A stretch of DNA of 64,000 bases from a virus: positions 530-64,529 of the IMG/VR virus record IMGVR_UViG_3300020147_000009; one strand, given 5' to 3'. Each line of letters starts with the position of its first letter. The stretch's first letter is position 1. Position numbers and translations under genes: made by a program. A model generated the notes under the pieces. The model was not told the origin of the DNA. It saw only the letters and a list, made by a program, of their open reading frames with translations, and did not search any database. Shown piece after piece: positions 9,315-64,000 of this stretch.

Positions 9315-10049
9315 TTAGAATTGTCTTGTTGATAGCTTCTTTTGGCTTGATACGTAATAATCTTCAATGAATTTGAAGTGTCTTTCATAGACATGAAGAG
9401 ACGAAGCTGACCAAATGATATCACCAACATCAACAAACAAATCTGCTGCTAACATCTTTAAAACATAACTTTGCCAAGCTCTGTCGTTCTTATATCCAAA
9501 TACTGCGTCGTTACTTCTCATCTTTACGTGGGCGTGAATCTTACCACCACGAATCAAATATGTTACAGAATCAGTGCAGATAAAGTCAGACATTCCGTCT
9601 TTATTATAATCTTTATGCATACTTGGACGAGTGTAAATCATATTTGCTCTACGAGAATATGGATTCTTCTTGAGTTCAGCCAAAACATTTTCGTATTGGT
9701 TTCCATTTTCTTCTGAGTAAATACACCAACCATAGTTAGAGTTAATCATCCCTGCTGAGCTTGCTACAGCCTTCCAGATTTCTGGAGCACCACCTGGGAT
9801 ATCAGCAACAAATCTTGATTTAGACTTATACCATTGAACTTCACGTTCAACATAGTCCCAATTAACTTCACCAAAAATGGATTCTTCAGAAGCTAAGAAA
9901 GTACAACCAACTAACTCAACCATCTTAACGCCGGATTTATCAATTACAAAATTACCAGCTCTATATCTTTTAGCTAAGGACTCCCTAATATATTCAATAT
10001 TATGGTATTCTTTAATAGTACCAAATTCATGATTATTTGCATTAATCAT
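9315..10049 (-). CDS. 42: dCMP hydroxymethylase (T4 gene 42 homolog)
   Basis: Strong collinear similarity to T4 gp42 (VDKSGVKMVEL, YKSKSRFV, EIWKAVASS, INSNYGW, NPYSRRANMIYTRPSM, DYNKDGMSDFICT, MRSNDAVFG); 244 aa vs 246. Confidence 0.9.
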   Translation of the reverse strand: MINANNHEFGTIKEYHNIEYIRESLAKRYRAGNFVIDKSGVKMVELVGCTFLASEESIFGEVNWDYVEREVQWYKSKSRFVADIPGGAPEIWKAVASSAGMINSNYGWCIYSEENGNQYENVLAELKKNPYSRRANMIYTRPSMHKDYNKDGMSDFICTDSVTYLIRGGKIHAHVKMRSNDAVFGYKNDRAWQSYVLKMLAADLFVDVGDIIWSASSLHVYERHFKFIEDYYVSSQKKLSTRQF

Positions 10050-51350: not shown

Positions 51351-51866
51351 CTAAGGATGTTCATAAAAAATATGTTTACCAATCTTTGCTAACTTCTTGT
51401 ATTTCCAACCAGGATTTACGTAGTCAGCGTGATAAAACTCAGCATTCTCAAGTGAAGATAGTCTTTCTCCTTCAAGTAAAACTGCCTTTGCAACTTCTCT
51501 TGCTTCATTATAAGCTACTTCATTTCGCTTCTTTAAAGCCTTTGGTTTATCACAATACCAAGAGAACTGACAAACTACACCATTCTTTTGATATACTACT
51601 TTACAAATGTCATTTGGAAAATTACTTGAATTCGCTCTGTTTATAGTAACTTGCGCGATTGCAATCTTTCCTTCTGCGTTTTCTCCAGTTGCCTCATAGT
51701 AAATATTCTCTGTTAGGCAATCTAGTTGTCTATATCTTTCCTTAAGAGTAATATAGTTTTGATTAGTTTCATCAGCCTTGATTCGGTTGTATTGGATTGT
51801 TGTTATCTTATCTATTGCAAATACAACAACGAGTACTGCGATTAATGAAATGATAACATTCTTCAT
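51351..51866 (-). CDS. SleB-like cell-wall hydrolase (endolysin) with N-terminal signal-anchor
   Basis: NIYYEATGENAEGKIAIAQVTINRANSSNFPNDICKVVYQ...QFSWYCD matches the SleB/Hydrolase_2 core; N-terminal TM MKNVIISLIAVLVVVFAI. Confidence 0.7.
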   Translation of the reverse strand: MKNVIISLIAVLVVVFAIDKITTIQYNRIKADETNQNYITLKERYRQLDCLTENIYYEATGENAEGKIAIAQVTINRANSSNFPNDICKVVYQKNGVVCQFSWYCDKPKALKKRNEVAYNEAREVAKAVLLEGERLSSLENAEFYHADYVNPGWKYKKLAKIGKHIFYEHP

Positions 51867-52981: not shown

Positions 52982-53215
52982 TTATGTAATTTTTGCCATC
53001 TTTTTTCCTTCTTTTTCCATTATTTCTAATGTACCATACATCTTAATGGAACCTTTAGTGTGTGAATTATCCGGTGTTTCTTTAGTGGTAAAACCAACAC
53101 TAGACTCAAAATGATTAATATAGTGAGTTTCTCCCTTGTATTTGATAATCCAAGGAGGAATGCTTTGGTCTATATTGTGAGCCTTATTATAAGTGAAAAT
53201 AATAGGACTGCTCAT
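52982..53215 (-). CDS. hypothetical protein (77 aa from ATG 53213-53215; ORF track starts GTG at 53227)
   Basis: ATG overlaps TAA of upstream PTH2-like frame (TAATG). Confidence 0.45.
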   Translation of the reverse strand: MSSPIIFTYNKAHNIDQSIPPWIIKYKGETHYINHFESSVGFTTKETPDNSHTKGSIKMYGTLEIMEKEGKKMAKIT

Positions 53216-53520
53216 TATGGCCTCCACAACTTGAAGTTACTCATCAACTTCTTTTGATTCTCATCAAGTGGTTCCGTCGTTATGGACGAGTAACCCATAT
53301 CATTATCAGGTTCGAAGAACTTATGATAACGTATGTTGTGAGTATCTAAGTAGTTGCCAATAGACTCTAAGTGAGAAGGTCCTTTAGCTTCCAATAAAAT
53401 TAAATATGGAACCTACGTTGGTTCAAGAAATTCTGCTCCCGCTTGCATAGCAGAATGGCAGGCTTGAACCATTTGATGTTGAATAGGTAAATCTTTTCTA
53501 ATAAAAGTATATGTTCTCAT
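53215..53520 (-). pseudogene. PTH2-like peptidyl-tRNA hydrolase gene interrupted by in-frame amber codon (TAG at 53413..53415)
   Basis: ATG 53518-53520 with AAGGA SD; 35 codons, TAG, then 65 more in-frame codons ending TAA at 53215-53217; first segment RKDLPIQHQMVQACHSAMQAGAEF resembles PTH2 (RxDLxMxxGKxxAQxxHAA); frame ends with TAATG coupling. Confidence 0.5.
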
Positions 53521-53580
53521 TTTGTATCCTTTGAAATTAATTGAAAAATGTTTATAGACAATTAATCTTAAGGAGGTTCA

Positions 53581-54081: not shown

Positions 54082-54561
54082 CTAAAGTTCAAACGTCTTG
54101 TTTAATTCAAAATCATCCTGAGGGCCCGACTTATTTATAATTTCAATAACTGATTCTATTAAATCTTCAGGCACAACAAGGTCATTCTCAATAATTTGTG
54201 CTAATTGCCCAAATGTCATGCCATTGTCATTCAGAATTGTTATACCAACAGAAGAACCTTTGTAAATTCCCGATTCAATTTTAACTATAAGATTTTGAAA
54301 CCTATTGCCAGTGGTTTCAAATCCTAGATGTTTAGCTATTGCAATTGGTAATGTTCCACCTTGGCCGTCATAAGAAACCATGTCGGAATTTTCATTTTCA
54401 ACTTTTATTACATCACACTTAGGATAGAATAAGTCACAGGCTACACCAAGACAACAAAACTCTTCGGAATCATCCGGCAACTTTGTGTGAAGGGTTCCAG
54501 TGCCTTGTTTATATTTTCCTGAGCGAAGTGCTTCTACCCATTCTTTCCTAGCTTTATTCAT
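54082..54561 (-). CDS. hypothetical protein (159 aa)
   Basis: ORF. Confidence 0.5.
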   Translation of the reverse strand: MNKARKEWVEALRSGKYKQGTGTLHTKLPDDSEEFCCLGVACDLFYPKCDVIKVENENSDMVSYDGQGGTLPIAIAKHLGFETTGNRFQNLIVKIESGIYKGSSVGITILNDNGMTFGQLAQIIENDLVVPEDLIESVIEIINKSGPQDDFELNKTFEL

Positions 54562-62989: not shown

Positions 62990-63340
62990 TTAACAAATAA
63001 TATCTGGTCTTTTGTAATTAGGAGGAATAGACCATTTACCAGGATGGTCAGGATTCGAATTATCCCAAGGTTCGAATGGACGAGTAATCGGGTCTCCAGT
63101 TCTTCCAGAATCCCTAATAATTCTGATTAATTCTTCAAGGTATGATGGAACCTCAGGTACTGGATTATCAACAAATGGACCATTATCTTTTGGATGTGTT
63201 ATAGGTGATTCAATAAAAACTAAATCAAGATGTCTCTTAATCATTTCTAATGTTTCTTGTGTTGCACCTTCTCTATGGTCAATTGTTTGGTTAAGTTCAA
63301 ACCAACCTTGTAACCAATAGCAAAAATTTTCTGGCGTCAT
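62990..63340 (-). CDS. hypothetical protein (116 aa)
   Basis: ORF. Confidence 0.5.
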   Translation of the reverse strand: MTPENFCYWLQGWFELNQTIDHREGATQETLEMIKRHLDLVFIESPITHPKDNGPFVDNPVPEVPSYLEELIRIIRDSGRTGDPITRPFEPWDNSNPDHPGKWSIPPNYKRPDIIC

Positions 63341-63780
63341 GCTACTATCTTTTCCTTTCTATATTCAATTAATAATGGCTGATTCAAGGCGTCGTCATCA
63401 TCAGACATTAAAATCAACCATGGGATATTGCTAATGTATTCTCTCTTATTTGCAAGAATTTCTCTTAAGGATTTGAATACAACTTCTTCATCAGTAGCTG
63501 AATAAATTGCAGATTCATCACTACTAAGAGTTAGAAATACATAAACTTTAAAATCTGGTCCTTGCATGGAACAGAAGTGTTTCCATTGCCAAAATTCAGT
63601 TTTCATTCCAGCTTCTTCTCGGAATTCACGAATCATAGCATCAATAGGTATTTCATTTTCTTCTATCTTACCACCAACTCCATTGATAAGACCTTTTTGC
63701 CATTCAGGTTTGTTCTTACGAATAAGAGCATATCTATTTGTGTTCTGGTCGTAAGCAAATCCTAATACATATTCTTTCAT
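63337..63780 (-). CDS. Nudix hydrolase
   Basis: Nudix box GGKIEENEIPIDAMIREFREEAGM. Confidence 0.7.
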   Translation of the reverse strand: MKEYVLGFAYDQNTNRYALIRKNKPEWQKGLINGVGGKIEENEIPIDAMIREFREEAGMKTEFWQWKHFCSMQGPDFKVYVFLTLSSDESAIYSATDEEVVFKSLREILANKREYISNIPWLILMSDDDDALNQPLLIEYRKEKIVA

Positions 63781-63992: not shown

Positions 63993-64000
63993 TCTGTATG

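What the first reader, a model, noticed from the sequence alone, without database searches (positions are those of the whole stretch)
53215..53520. PTH2-like peptidyl-tRNA hydrolase gene with an in-frame amber (TAG) codon, yet with intact translational coupling at both ends
Hand translation gives MRTYTFIRKDLPIQHQMVQACHSAMQAGAEFLEPT-[TAG]-VPYLILLEAKGPSHLESIGNYLDTHNIRYHKFFEPDNDMGYSSITTEPLDENQKKLMSNFKLWRP. The first segment resembles the PTH2 core (RxDLxMxxGKxxAQxxHAA). The frame stays open for 65 codons after TAG and ends in a TAATG overlap with the next gene. The SD AAGGA precedes the ATG. TAG is used as a genuine stop elsewhere (e.g. 39574). So this is either a fresh nonsense pseudogene or a laboratory amber mutation. 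It could also be a gene expressed by amber suppression; T4-like phages often carry tRNA genes elsewhere. The ORF track missed it because each half is <60 aa.
Basis: seen in the sequence. Interest (0 to 1): 0.65.

Follow-up and report, generated by a model that had tools for sequence, protein, structure and literature searches.

The report
Amber-gated PTH2-like phage gene
A small phage gene for a peptidyl-tRNA-hydrolase-like protein is interrupted by a UAG stop codon; about 160 relatives show that such a UAG, usually next to a phage suppressor-tRNA gene, is the rule in this family, so it looks like a switch that allows the protein only when the suppressor tRNA works.

Summary

The family context was the unexpected part. 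I read about 160 distinct relatives at the DNA level, all from phage or metagenome contigs. About 110 carry an in-frame stop:
- It is usually 'SD-ATG-(0-5 codons)-TAG' just before the conserved domain, with no ATG between (a few have a GTG).
- Otherwise it lies inside the gene, at the window's own column in two other lineages.
- It is TAG in all but three cases.
- The next base was a purine in all 70 cases scored.
- A tRNA(CUA) gene usually lies within a few hundred bases.
- Both TGA cases sit next to a tRNA(UCA).

Flanking genes still use TAG as a terminator, so these are standard-code phages.

Best reading: translation of this gene is gated by a phage suppressor tRNA. For this copy a caveat remains: no suppressor tRNA was found in the 100 kb of the 124-kb contig that I could read. 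A pseudogene is therefore not excluded (about 0.3).

The parts
53215..53520 (-). Whole PTH2-fold gene: 101 codons including the in-frame TAG, plus the TAA stop
   Evidence: Translation. Homologues span both halves in one piece. The fold comes from a model of the 87%-identical P0001.
53527..53531 (-). Shine-Dalgarno AAGGA, 6 nt upstream of the ATG (53520-53518)
   Evidence: Read directly from the sequence.
53416..53520 (-). Codons 1-35: strand beta1 and helix alpha1, with the family-invariant Y4, R8, D10, Q19 and H22
   Evidence: Alignments. Secondary structure (E2-8, H13-31).
53413..53415 (-). In-frame amber codon TAG (codon 36), followed by G. It lies in the alpha1-beta2 surface loop. The closest relative has Gln here.
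   Evidence: P0001 reads EFLEPTQVPYL. L064 and L005 have a TAG at the same column. This loop has the lowest pLDDT block of the model's core, 78.
53218..53412 (-). Codons 37-101: beta2, alpha2, beta3, beta4 and the C-terminal helix, with invariant L40, F68, E70, P71, G76 and P84 all intact
   Evidence: Between TAG-bearing members, pN is 0.26-0.37 against saturated pS of 0.87-1.0.
52982..53215 (-). Translationally coupled 77-aa partner gene (TAATG overlap), syntenic with the PTH2-like gene in about 20 related loci. Function unknown.

Best explanation
The gene belongs to a phage-specific family of small proteins (about 100 aa) with the PTH2 (peptidyl-tRNA hydrolase 2) fold. The family is genetically tied to phage suppressor tRNAs, and its mRNA typically carries one suppressible stop codon in frame.

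Shown: the ribosome-binding site serves an ATG that lies upstream of the stop. The stop is UAG, or UGA where the neighbouring tRNA has a UCA anticodon. It sits at positions that tolerate any amino acid, namely an N-terminal leader or a surface loop. It is followed by a purine in every case scored. The gene's real terminator is almost never UAG.

Inferred: the full-length protein is made only when a ribosome inserts an amino acid at the UAG using the phage-encoded tRNA(CUA). Output of the hydrolase-like protein therefore reports how well the suppressor competes with release factor 1. The tRNA and the gene are usually adjacent and on the same strand, so timing alone would not need such a gate. 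The most likely purpose is feedback or dosage coupling. The protein would act on an ester-linked tRNA species produced by or including the suppressor (peptidyl- or aminoacyl-tRNA), and it would be made in proportion to suppressor activity. Its biochemical activity and the sign of the feedback are not shown.

For the window's copy, the UAG at codon 36 is the internal-loop variant of the same device. I infer that it is read through by a suppressor tRNA encoded in the unassembled part of this T4-like genome. That genome has a tRNA/tmRNA island that starts 2 kb from the contig end.
For: 1. One gene, PTH2 fold.

2. Recurrence of the in-frame stop.
- Among 132 distinct members that could be anchored, 79 have a leader ATG-(0-5 codons)-TAG, 9 have an internal TAG (codons 36, 46, 52, 56), 1 has a leader TGA and 37 are intact.
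- About 19 more leader-TAG members, 1 TGA, 1 TAA and 1 internal TAG appear among 34 more divergent loci.

3. Specificity of the stop, in the first set of 106 distinct members.
- 69 of 70 in-frame stops are TAG, against 22% TAG among upstream in-frame stops of neighbouring ORFs (p = 7e-44).
- The next base is a purine in 70 of 70, against 76 of 155 after genuine TAG terminators (p = 4e-17).
- The family's own terminators are TAA 47, TGA 53 and TAG 3.

4. A core SD precedes the leader ATG in 50 of 62 cases, and no ATG lies between the stop and the domain, though a minority have a GTG there.

5. Linkage to a suppressor tRNA.
- A UAG-reading suppressor (CUA or UUA) lies within 10 kb in 45 of 53 leader-TAG loci with adequate flanks.
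- It is often under 500 nt away and on the same strand.
- It is the nearest tRNA in 24 of 51 loci, against 8.6 expected.

6. Covariation: both independent TGA cases (L020 and L202) sit next to a tRNA(UCA).

7. The same column as the window carries TAG in L064 (66% identical) and L005 (57% identical). L005 has a tRNA(CUA) 101 nt upstream.

8. The part downstream of the TAG is conserved: pN is far below pS, and all invariant residues are kept.

9. Cultured phages show the pattern: ME3, Serratia BF, Arash and RsoM2USA. GenBank leaves the gene unannotated or truncated in these records, and PHROG 34073 models only the C-terminal 77 residues.

10. A relative of the window phage, found through an unrelated gene, has a 16-tRNA cluster ending in tRNA(CUA). 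That tRNA is followed 42 nt later by ATG AAA CTG TAG and a family member.

11. The flanking genes are not recoded.
Against: - No tRNA(CUA) was found in the window or in contig positions 24,542-124,132. The visible tRNA island holds only Met-like, Gly, Ser-like and one aberrant tRNA, plus a tmRNA.
- The closest relative (P0001, 87% identical) has Gln at codon 36. Its short intergenic spacer also leaves no room for a tRNA directly upstream. The window's TAG could therefore be a recent CAG-to-TAG mutation.
- Read-through has not been observed in any member: there is no proteomic or ribosome-profiling evidence.
- The amino-acid identity of the suppressor tRNAs could not be assigned.
- The loop that carries the catalytic Lys in Pth2 is deleted, so hydrolase activity is uncertain.
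- 37 members are intact, and several of them still sit next to a suppressor tRNA. The TAG is therefore not obligatory.
- The statistics treat distinct sequences as independent, but they are phylogenetically related. At 70% identity the first set (the 129 loci) gives 53 clusters, 37 of them with an in-frame stop.
Confidence: 0.6

Rival explanations
1. Pseudogene. In this T4-like lineage the gene has moved away from the tRNA island and the suppressor has been lost. Alternatively, a fresh CAG-to-TAG transition has just occurred. Either way the gene now yields only a 35-residue fragment and will decay.
For: No suppressor tRNA appears in 100 kb of the contig. The 87%-identical relative has Gln at this codon, and CAG to TAG is a single transition. 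That relative also lacks a tRNA directly upstream. A fresh nonsense mutation would leave everything else intact, as is seen here.
Against: TAG occupies exactly this column in two further lineages, at 66% and 57% identity, with intact frames downstream. One of them sits next to a tRNA(CUA). Three independent random nonsense hits at one of about 100 codons, all TAG and all followed by a purine, are very unlikely. About 19% of TAG-bearing relatives also have no suppressor within 10 kb, and in RsoM2USA the suppressor is known to lie elsewhere in the genome (PMC8504454). The window genome is incomplete, and its tRNA island lies at the contig end.
Confidence: 0.3
2. Two products without read-through. 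The TAG ends a short upstream ORF, and the downstream part is translated by re-initiation: at TTG 53394 in the window, or at near-cognate AUU/AUC codons in the leader-type relatives.
For: An ORF with a TTG start (53394..53215, 59 aa) exists. In 34 of 62 leader-type relatives the codon after the stop is ATT or ATC.
Against: Re-initiation would work with any stop codon, yet 69 of 70 are TAG, and the TGA cases covary with a UCA tRNA. In the window a product starting at 53394 would lack beta1, alpha1 and beta2, and with them the invariant R8, D10, Q19, H22 and L40. Many leader-type members have AAC, AAT, GTT, ACT or GAT after the stop.
Confidence: 0.04
3. Genome-wide stop-codon reassignment: the phage reads TAG as an amino acid throughout (code 15), and this gene is just one of many recoded genes.
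For: Phage-encoded suppressor tRNAs are the hallmark of recoded phages (bioRxiv 10.1101/2021.08.26.457843, read).
Against: In the window, 12 of 90 ORFs end in TAG, and no other gene is split by a TAG. In about 1.3 Mb of related loci, TAG ends 11% of ORFs, and TAG-bridged ORF pairs are not clearly enriched: 11 of 220, against 27 of 984 for TAA and 23 of 728 for TGA.
Confidence: 0.03
4. Artefact: a sequencing or assembly error at 53413-53415, or a laboratory amber mutant.
For: None beyond the prior rarity of in-frame stops.
Against: The bases are identical in a MEGAHIT assembly and a Logan assembly. The source is a metagenome, not a laboratory stock. The same feature is found in dozens of independent assemblies and in cultured phages.
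Confidence: 0.02

Closest known systems
Archaeal/eukaryotic peptidyl-tRNA hydrolase 2 (Pfam PF01981; e.g. P. horikoshii PH1539, PDB 1WN2; human PTRH2/Bit1, PDB 1Q7S)
   Different: Identity is only 10-16%. Scores fall below Pfam's gathering cut-off. The protein is about 15 residues shorter. The G-K loop is deleted; from my own knowledge, that loop carries the catalytic Lys of Pth2. The family was found only on phage and metagenome contigs, with none in 185,579 bacterial and archaeal genomes using the one conserved pattern scanned. It is linked to suppressor tRNAs and carries an in-frame stop.
Stop-codon recoding in Lak, crAss-like and other gut phages (TAG or TGA read as sense by phage suppressor tRNAs)
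   Same: A phage-encoded suppressor tRNA is needed to translate phage genes that contain in-frame stops, and this has been proposed as a regulatory device (preprint read; PMC10879173).
   Different: In those phages many late genes are recoded and the stop is largely abandoned as a terminator. Here the genomes use the standard code and TAG still ends about 11-13% of genes. One small gene, usually adjacent to the tRNA, carries a single stop at a permissive position. These are mostly jumbo and T4-like phages of Proteobacteria and environmental phages.
Autoregulation of release factor 2 (prfB) by an early in-frame UGA (own knowledge)
   Same: A translation-termination-related factor has an early in-frame stop codon in its own mRNA, so its synthesis depends on how that stop is decoded.
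   Different: RF2 uses a +1 frameshift and a proven negative feedback. Here decoding would be by a suppressor tRNA, and the direction of any feedback is unknown.
Lambda bar minigenes and pth(rap) (own knowledge)
   Same: A two- or three-codon ORF (AUG-NNN-stop) behind a good SD, with a functional connection to peptidyl-tRNA hydrolase.
   Different: The bar minigenes are free-standing and toxic through peptidyl-tRNA drop-off. Here the mini-ORF is in frame with, and continuous with, a Pth-like coding sequence.
Synthetic suppressor-tRNA gated circuits (PMC7969014, seen)
   Same: The design is the same: the target gene carries an amber codon and is expressed only when a co-expressed suppressor tRNA is present.
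   Different: Those circuits are engineered. The module described here is natural, widespread and tied to one protein family.

Membership tests
PTH2 (Pfam PF01981) | Scores at or above the Pfam gathering cut-off (23 bits) | tested here: not met
   The window protein has no hit at E <= 10. Relatives score 15.6-20.6 bits. 25 of 40 close relatives give sub-threshold hits, best E = 2e-5.
PTH2 (Pfam PF01981) | PTH2 alpha/beta fold | tested here: met
   [not shown]
PTH2 (Pfam PF01981) | Catalytic residues: Lys of the G-K loop and Asp of the D-A-G-x-T motif (recalled from the S. solfataricus Pth2 literature, not re-read here) | tested here: inconclusive
   A profile alignment to PDB 24bt_A shows a two-residue gap exactly at the 'tgK' position. 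The C-terminal motif is E-P-D-x-x-x-G rather than D-A-G-x-T. R8, D10, Q19, H22, E70 and P71 are invariant. No structural superposition of side chains was possible.
PTH2 (Pfam PF01981) | Hydrolysis of peptidyl-tRNA | not testable with these tools
   Needs an enzyme assay.
Suppressor-tRNA-dependent (programmed) stop-codon read-through gene | An in-frame stop conserved or recurrent among homologues, with coding sequence conserved on both sides | tested here: met
   About 110 of about 160 distinct members carry an in-frame stop. The window's column carries TAG in three lineages. pN is far below pS downstream of the stop.
Suppressor-tRNA-dependent (programmed) stop-codon read-through gene | A cognate suppressor tRNA encoded by the same genome | tested here: inconclusive
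   The family meets this: 45 of 53 leader-TAG loci with adequate flanks have one, and both TGA cases have a UCA tRNA. For the window phage none was found in contig positions 24.5-124.1 kb, and the genome is incomplete.
Suppressor-tRNA-dependent (programmed) stop-codon read-through gene | A stop-codon context that favours read-through | tested here: met
   The next base is a purine in 70 of 70 cases, against 49% after genuine TAG terminators. The window has TAG-G. That +4U strengthens termination is stated in the abstract of PMC5289835. That a 3' purine favours amber suppression is from my own knowledge (Bossi 1983; Miller and Albertini 1983).
Suppressor-tRNA-dependent (programmed) stop-codon read-through gene | A full-length product observed | not testable with these tools
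   Needs proteomics or ribosome profiling.
Genome-wide recoded phage (code 15) | TAG abandoned as a terminator and many genes split by TAG | tested here: not met
   12 of 90 window ORFs end in TAG, and only this gene is split. Related loci give the same picture.

The most novel reading that the evidence does not exclude
The suppressor tRNA and the amber-gated PTH2-fold protein form a self-regulating two-gene module, often with a tmRNA gene nearby, by which large standard-code phages set the level of UAG read-through in the infected cell. The protein would act on the charged or peptidyl form of the suppressor tRNA itself. Its synthesis would be a direct read-out of suppression efficiency. That would make it a tRNA-based analogue of RF2 autoregulation, and the first physiological target and partner for the 'orphan' suppressor tRNAs of jumbo phages.
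Probability: 0.3. Interest if true: 0.9.

Novelty: new variant of a known kind. Interest (0 to 1): 0.8.

Why it matters
Suppressor tRNA genes have been reported in many jumbo phages that use the standard code (XacN1, RsoM2USA, Atu_ph07, phiKp24), and their targets are unknown. The XacN1 authors say explicitly that they could not identify any (PMC5852040).

This family supplies a concrete, testable target. It is a small PTH2-fold gene, usually adjacent to the tRNA, whose translation must pass a matching stop codon.

The finding also explains why the gene is missing or truncated in GenBank records, and why PHROG 34073 covers only the C-terminal two thirds.

If the gating is confirmed, it is a natural single-gene use of stop-codon suppression as a regulatory device in otherwise unrecoded viruses. 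It could also be a stepping stone towards full recoding. It would further provide naturally matched tRNA and context pairs for genetic-code engineering.

Tried and rejected
1. megablast of the locus against 50,697 phage records found no close relative.
2. Pfam, NCBIfam and PHROGs searches on the window protein and its neighbours gave nothing informative, apart from PHROG 34073 and weak PTH2 hits.
3. A single-sequence search of the PDB gave nothing.
4. I tried to assign the suppressor tRNAs' amino-acid identity by nearest-neighbour comparison with 400 other phage tRNAs. The result was inconclusive, with weak resemblance to Lys and Arg tRNAs.
5. A scan of 185,579 bacterial and archaeal genomes found no relatives, although only one conserved pattern could be used.
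6. I looked for more TGA-type members with the L020 protein and found only L020 itself. A broad 53-sequence alignment was too diverse to search with.
7. I walked the source contig to look for a suppressor tRNA and reached positions 24,542-124,132. The last look-ups returned a shorter Logan contig, so positions 1-24,541 remain unread; baseplate genes lie at the edge of that stretch.
8. The partner protein's fold matched nothing in the PDB.
9. The re-initiation, recoding and artefact explanations were considered and rejected, as set out under rival explanations.
10. A 5-bp hairpin around the window's TAG is not conserved in L064 or L005, and I treat it as chance.

Full report
**Observation**

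On the minus strand, 53520..53215 is a single 101-codon frame. AAGGA (53531-53527) precedes the ATG (53520-53518). Thirty-five sense codons follow, then TAG at 53415-53413, then 65 more sense codons. The TAA at 53217-53215 overlaps the ATG of the next gene as TAATG.

The two halves are one gene. tblastn aligns residues 3-100 in one piece in 26 phage records. Forty-two database proteins of about 101 aa cover both halves at 40-87% identity. The closest, P0001 (87%), reads EFLEPTQVPYL where the window has EFLEPT-TAG-VPYL.

The window comes from ENA assembly ERZ27257321, contig k141_670337 (124,132 bp; the window is positions 43,685-107,684). The phage is T4-like, with gp32, gp59, gp5, gp25, gp6 and a DNA ligase. 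A Logan assembly of run SRR7004144 has the same bases, TAG included. A sequencing artefact or a laboratory amber mutant can therefore be set aside.

TAG is otherwise a normal terminator here, ending 12 of 90 ORFs, and no other gene is split by one.

**What the protein is**

Pfam finds nothing in the window protein. Relatives give only sub-threshold PTH2 hits: 15.6-20.6 bits against a cut-off of 23, with best E = 2e-5 in 25 of 40 members.

The R-x-D-L...Q-x-x-H motif is shared with Pth2. A profile alignment to a solved Pth2, however, shows a two-residue deletion exactly where Pth2 has its G-K loop.

So the fold is PTH2, family membership by Pfam's criterion is not met, and catalytic competence is open.

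The family is large: 1,917 cluster representatives at E <= 1e-3. With the pattern that could be scanned, it was absent from 185,579 bacterial and archaeal genomes.

**The family-wide pattern**

Three cultured phages gave the lead. In Acinetobacter phage ME3, Serratia phage BF and Salmonella phage Arash, the homologous frame has no start codon of its own. It is preceded, in frame, by SD-ATG-(1-2 codons)-TAG. ME3 has an annotated tRNA with anticodon CTA 450 nt upstream.

I then collected homologous loci at the DNA level, which is independent of gene calling. They came from IMG/VR and JGI metagenomes, and I classified them with scripts.

Among 132 distinct members that could be anchored on the conserved Y-x-F-x-R start of the domain:

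| Class | Members |
|---|---|
| Leader ATG-(0-5 codons)-TAG | 79 |
| Internal TAG (codons 36, 46, 52 or 56) | 9 |
| Leader TGA | 1 |
| Ordinary ATG start, no stop | 37 |
| Unclear | 6 |

Thirty-four more divergent loci add about 19 leader-TAG cases, a second TGA, one TAA and another internal TAG in the same loop as the window's.

In the first 106 distinct members:
- 69 of 70 in-frame stops are TAG. Only 22% of the first upstream in-frame stops of neighbouring ORFs are TAG (binomial p = 7e-44).
- The base after the stop is A or G in 70 of 70. After genuine TAG terminators it is a purine in 76 of 155 (p = 4e-17).
- The family's own terminators are TAA 47, TGA 53 and TAG 3.

These tests treat sequences as independent, which they are not. 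At 70% identity the first set (the 129 loci) gives 53 clusters, of which 37 carry an in-frame stop.

A core Shine-Dalgarno motif sits 4-18 nt before the leader ATG in 50 of 62 cases. No ATG lies between the stop and the domain, though a minority have a GTG there. The short stretch after the stop carries a recurring (D/E)-K-T-(W/Y) motif, as expected if it is translated.

**Link to suppressor tRNAs**

ARAGORN finds a tRNA with anticodon CUA on the same strand in most loci, often within a few hundred bases of the gene.
- Among leader-TAG loci with at least 3 kb on both sides, 43 have a tRNA(CUA) within 10 kb. Two have a tRNA(UUA), which would also read UAG. Eight have none.
- In loci with three or more tRNAs, the suppressor is the nearest tRNA in 24 of 51, against 8.6 expected from the tRNAs present.
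- The two independent members whose leader stop is TGA (L020 and L202) each lie next to a tRNA(UCA), which ends about 210 nt and 70 nt upstream of the conserved domain. No TAG-bearing locus has a UCA tRNA as its nearest suppressor. By hand calculation, drawing those two out of 49 loci by chance has a probability of about 1 in 1,176.
- The loci are not recoded. TAG ends 11% of neighbouring ORFs, and TAG-bridged ORF pairs are not clearly enriched.

While trying to see beyond the end of the window's contig, I followed an unrelated HD-hydrolase gene to a 90-kb relative. There a 16-tRNA cluster ends in tRNA(CUA). It is followed 42 nt later by ATG AAA CTG TAG ACT and a divergent member of this family. 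This was an unplanned replication of the pattern.

**The window's copy in this context**

Its TAG lies in the loop between helix alpha1 and strand beta2. That is the least confident part of the model's core, and the column is variable (Q, K, E, N, D, I and others).

The same column carries TAG in L064 (66% identical; CCG ACC TAG ATT) and in L005 (57% identical; CCT GGG TAG GGG). L005 has a tRNA(CUA) ending 101 nt upstream of the conserved domain.

Between these TAG-bearing members, the region downstream of the TAG shows pN of 0.26-0.37 against saturated pS, and keeps every invariant residue. This is not what three independent fresh pseudogenes would look like.

Against that, the window phage shows no suppressor tRNA:
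- There is none in the window by ARAGORN or by Rfam.
- There is none in contig positions 24,542-124,132.

About 14 kb upstream of the gene, and 2 kb from the contig end, lies a small island. It holds a CAU tRNA, an aberrant 92-nt tRNA-like sequence, tRNA-Gly(GCC), a permuted tmRNA (tag ANDESYALAA) and a Ser(GCU)-like tRNA. Both assemblies stop at the same point. The genome is therefore incomplete exactly where further tRNAs would be expected.

RsoM2USA shows that the target gene and the suppressor can be far apart. Its leader-TAG gene is unannotated in GenBank and has no tRNA within 6 kb. The published genome nevertheless has one CUA suppressor (PMC8504454).

**Mechanism: what is shown and what is inferred**

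Shown:
- The ribosome-binding site serves an ATG upstream of a stop.
- The stop type matches the neighbouring suppressor's anticodon.
- The stop sits where any residue is tolerated.
- Its 3' context is uniformly a purine.
- The gene avoids TAG as its real terminator.

Inferred: the full-length protein is made only by suppressor-tRNA read-through.

The tRNA and the gene are usually adjacent and co-oriented, so the gate adds no timing information. What it adds is a read-out of suppression efficiency, that is, of the suppressor's competition with RF1. I therefore favour a feedback or dosage-coupling role, in which a PTH2-fold enzyme acts on an ester-linked tRNA species connected with suppression and is produced in proportion to suppressor activity. 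The sign of the feedback and the substrate are unknown.

Re-initiation after a mini-ORF is rejected because it would not require TAG specifically. It also cannot rescue the internal-stop variants, which would lose the invariant N-terminal residues.

**Comparison with what is known, and novelty**

The closest known things are these:
- Pth2 itself: same fold, but not a member by Pfam's test.
- Stop-codon recoding in gut phages: the same use of suppressor tRNAs, but genome-wide.
- RF2's early in-frame UGA: the same logic, but a different decoding event (own knowledge).
- Lambda bar minigenes (own knowledge).
- Synthetic amber-gated circuits (PMC7969014).

Six full-text searches found no description of a PTH2-like gene gated by an in-frame stop, or of its linkage to phage suppressor tRNAs. 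Nor did reading the most relevant papers. The XacN1 paper states that no targets of its CUA suppressors could be identified. The library does not hold most subscription-journal papers, so prior description cannot be excluded.

I rate this a new variant of a known kind: suppressor-dependent decoding, here as a dedicated tRNA-target pair in standard-code phages.

**Verdict**

- The family-level claim, that in-frame stops are functional and read by the linked suppressor, has a confidence of about 0.85.
- That this particular copy is so expressed: about 0.55-0.6.
- A pseudogene in this lineage: about 0.3.
- Interest: 0.8.

Noticed in passing
[not shown]
   Followed up: partly
L141 2126-3766 (source contig about 120.4-122.0 kb, outside the window, about 14 kb upstream of the gene): The window phage has a tRNA/tmRNA island: a CAU tRNA, an aberrant 92-nt tRNA-like sequence with an A33 anticodon loop, tRNA-Gly(GCC), a permuted tmRNA (tag ANDESYALAA) and a Ser(GCU)-like class II tRNA. 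An HNH endonuclease gene lies next to the island. Both assemblies end 2 kb further on.
   Followed up: partly
16 related loci, e.g. L057 9157-9483, L158, L160, L171: A phage-encoded tmRNA gene lies 1-5 kb upstream of the PTH2-like gene in 16 of 68 loci with at least 5 kb of flank. Suppressor tRNA, tmRNA and the PTH2-like gene may therefore travel together.
   Followed up: partly
L002 1472-1809 (Serratia phage BF), L144 5975-6345 (RsoM2USA), L003 1478-1809 and 2795-2869 (Arash): Public annotation misses or truncates the gene. It is unannotated in BF, RsoM2USA, fHe-Yen9-03/04 and the pEa_SNUABM phages. In Arash it is split into a 'hypothetical protein' and a 50-aa 'peptidyl-tRNA hydrolase'. PHROG 34073 models only the last 77 residues. 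ARAGORN gives Arash's annotated 'tRNA-Phe' a CUA anticodon.
   Followed up: yes
L145 973-1815 (Xanthomonas phage XacN1 ORF364): In XacN1 a divergent copy of the domain, without an in-frame stop, forms the C-terminus of a 279-aa protein. By eye, the N-terminal part has an HD-like H-D-I-G-K-P motif. RaK2_00216 is another intact divergent copy, lying between tRNA-Leu and tRNA-Gly with no suppressor nearby.
   Followed up: partly
L178 about 9940-10015: One member has a leader that ends in TAA (ATG TTG CCA CAC ACG TAA GTA). No suppressor tRNA was found within 10 kb. This is the only TAA case and is unexplained.
   Followed up: partly
window 54082-54084 and 51351-51353 (minus strand): Two genes end in TAG and are followed, in the same frame and after only 3-4 codons, by the next gene (159 aa + 162 aa, and 171 aa + 124 aa). 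Amber suppression would fuse each pair. Being in frame has a 1-in-3 chance for each pair.
   Followed up: no
window 53409-53424 (minus strand): A 5-bp hairpin, GAACC-AACGTA-GGTTC, encloses the TAG and is followed by a T-rich run, so the scan flagged it as terminator-like. It is not conserved in L064 or L005 and is probably chance.
   Followed up: partly
L055 5644-6561 and 3703-5286 (source contig, beyond window position 64000): The phage encodes a polynucleotide kinase-phosphatase-like protein (AAA_33 + HAD_PNKP) and a NAMPT-like protein upstream of the locus. A NUDIX gene lies inside the window at 63337-63780. The first fits a tRNA-repair or tRNA-maintenance theme in this genome region.
   Followed up: no
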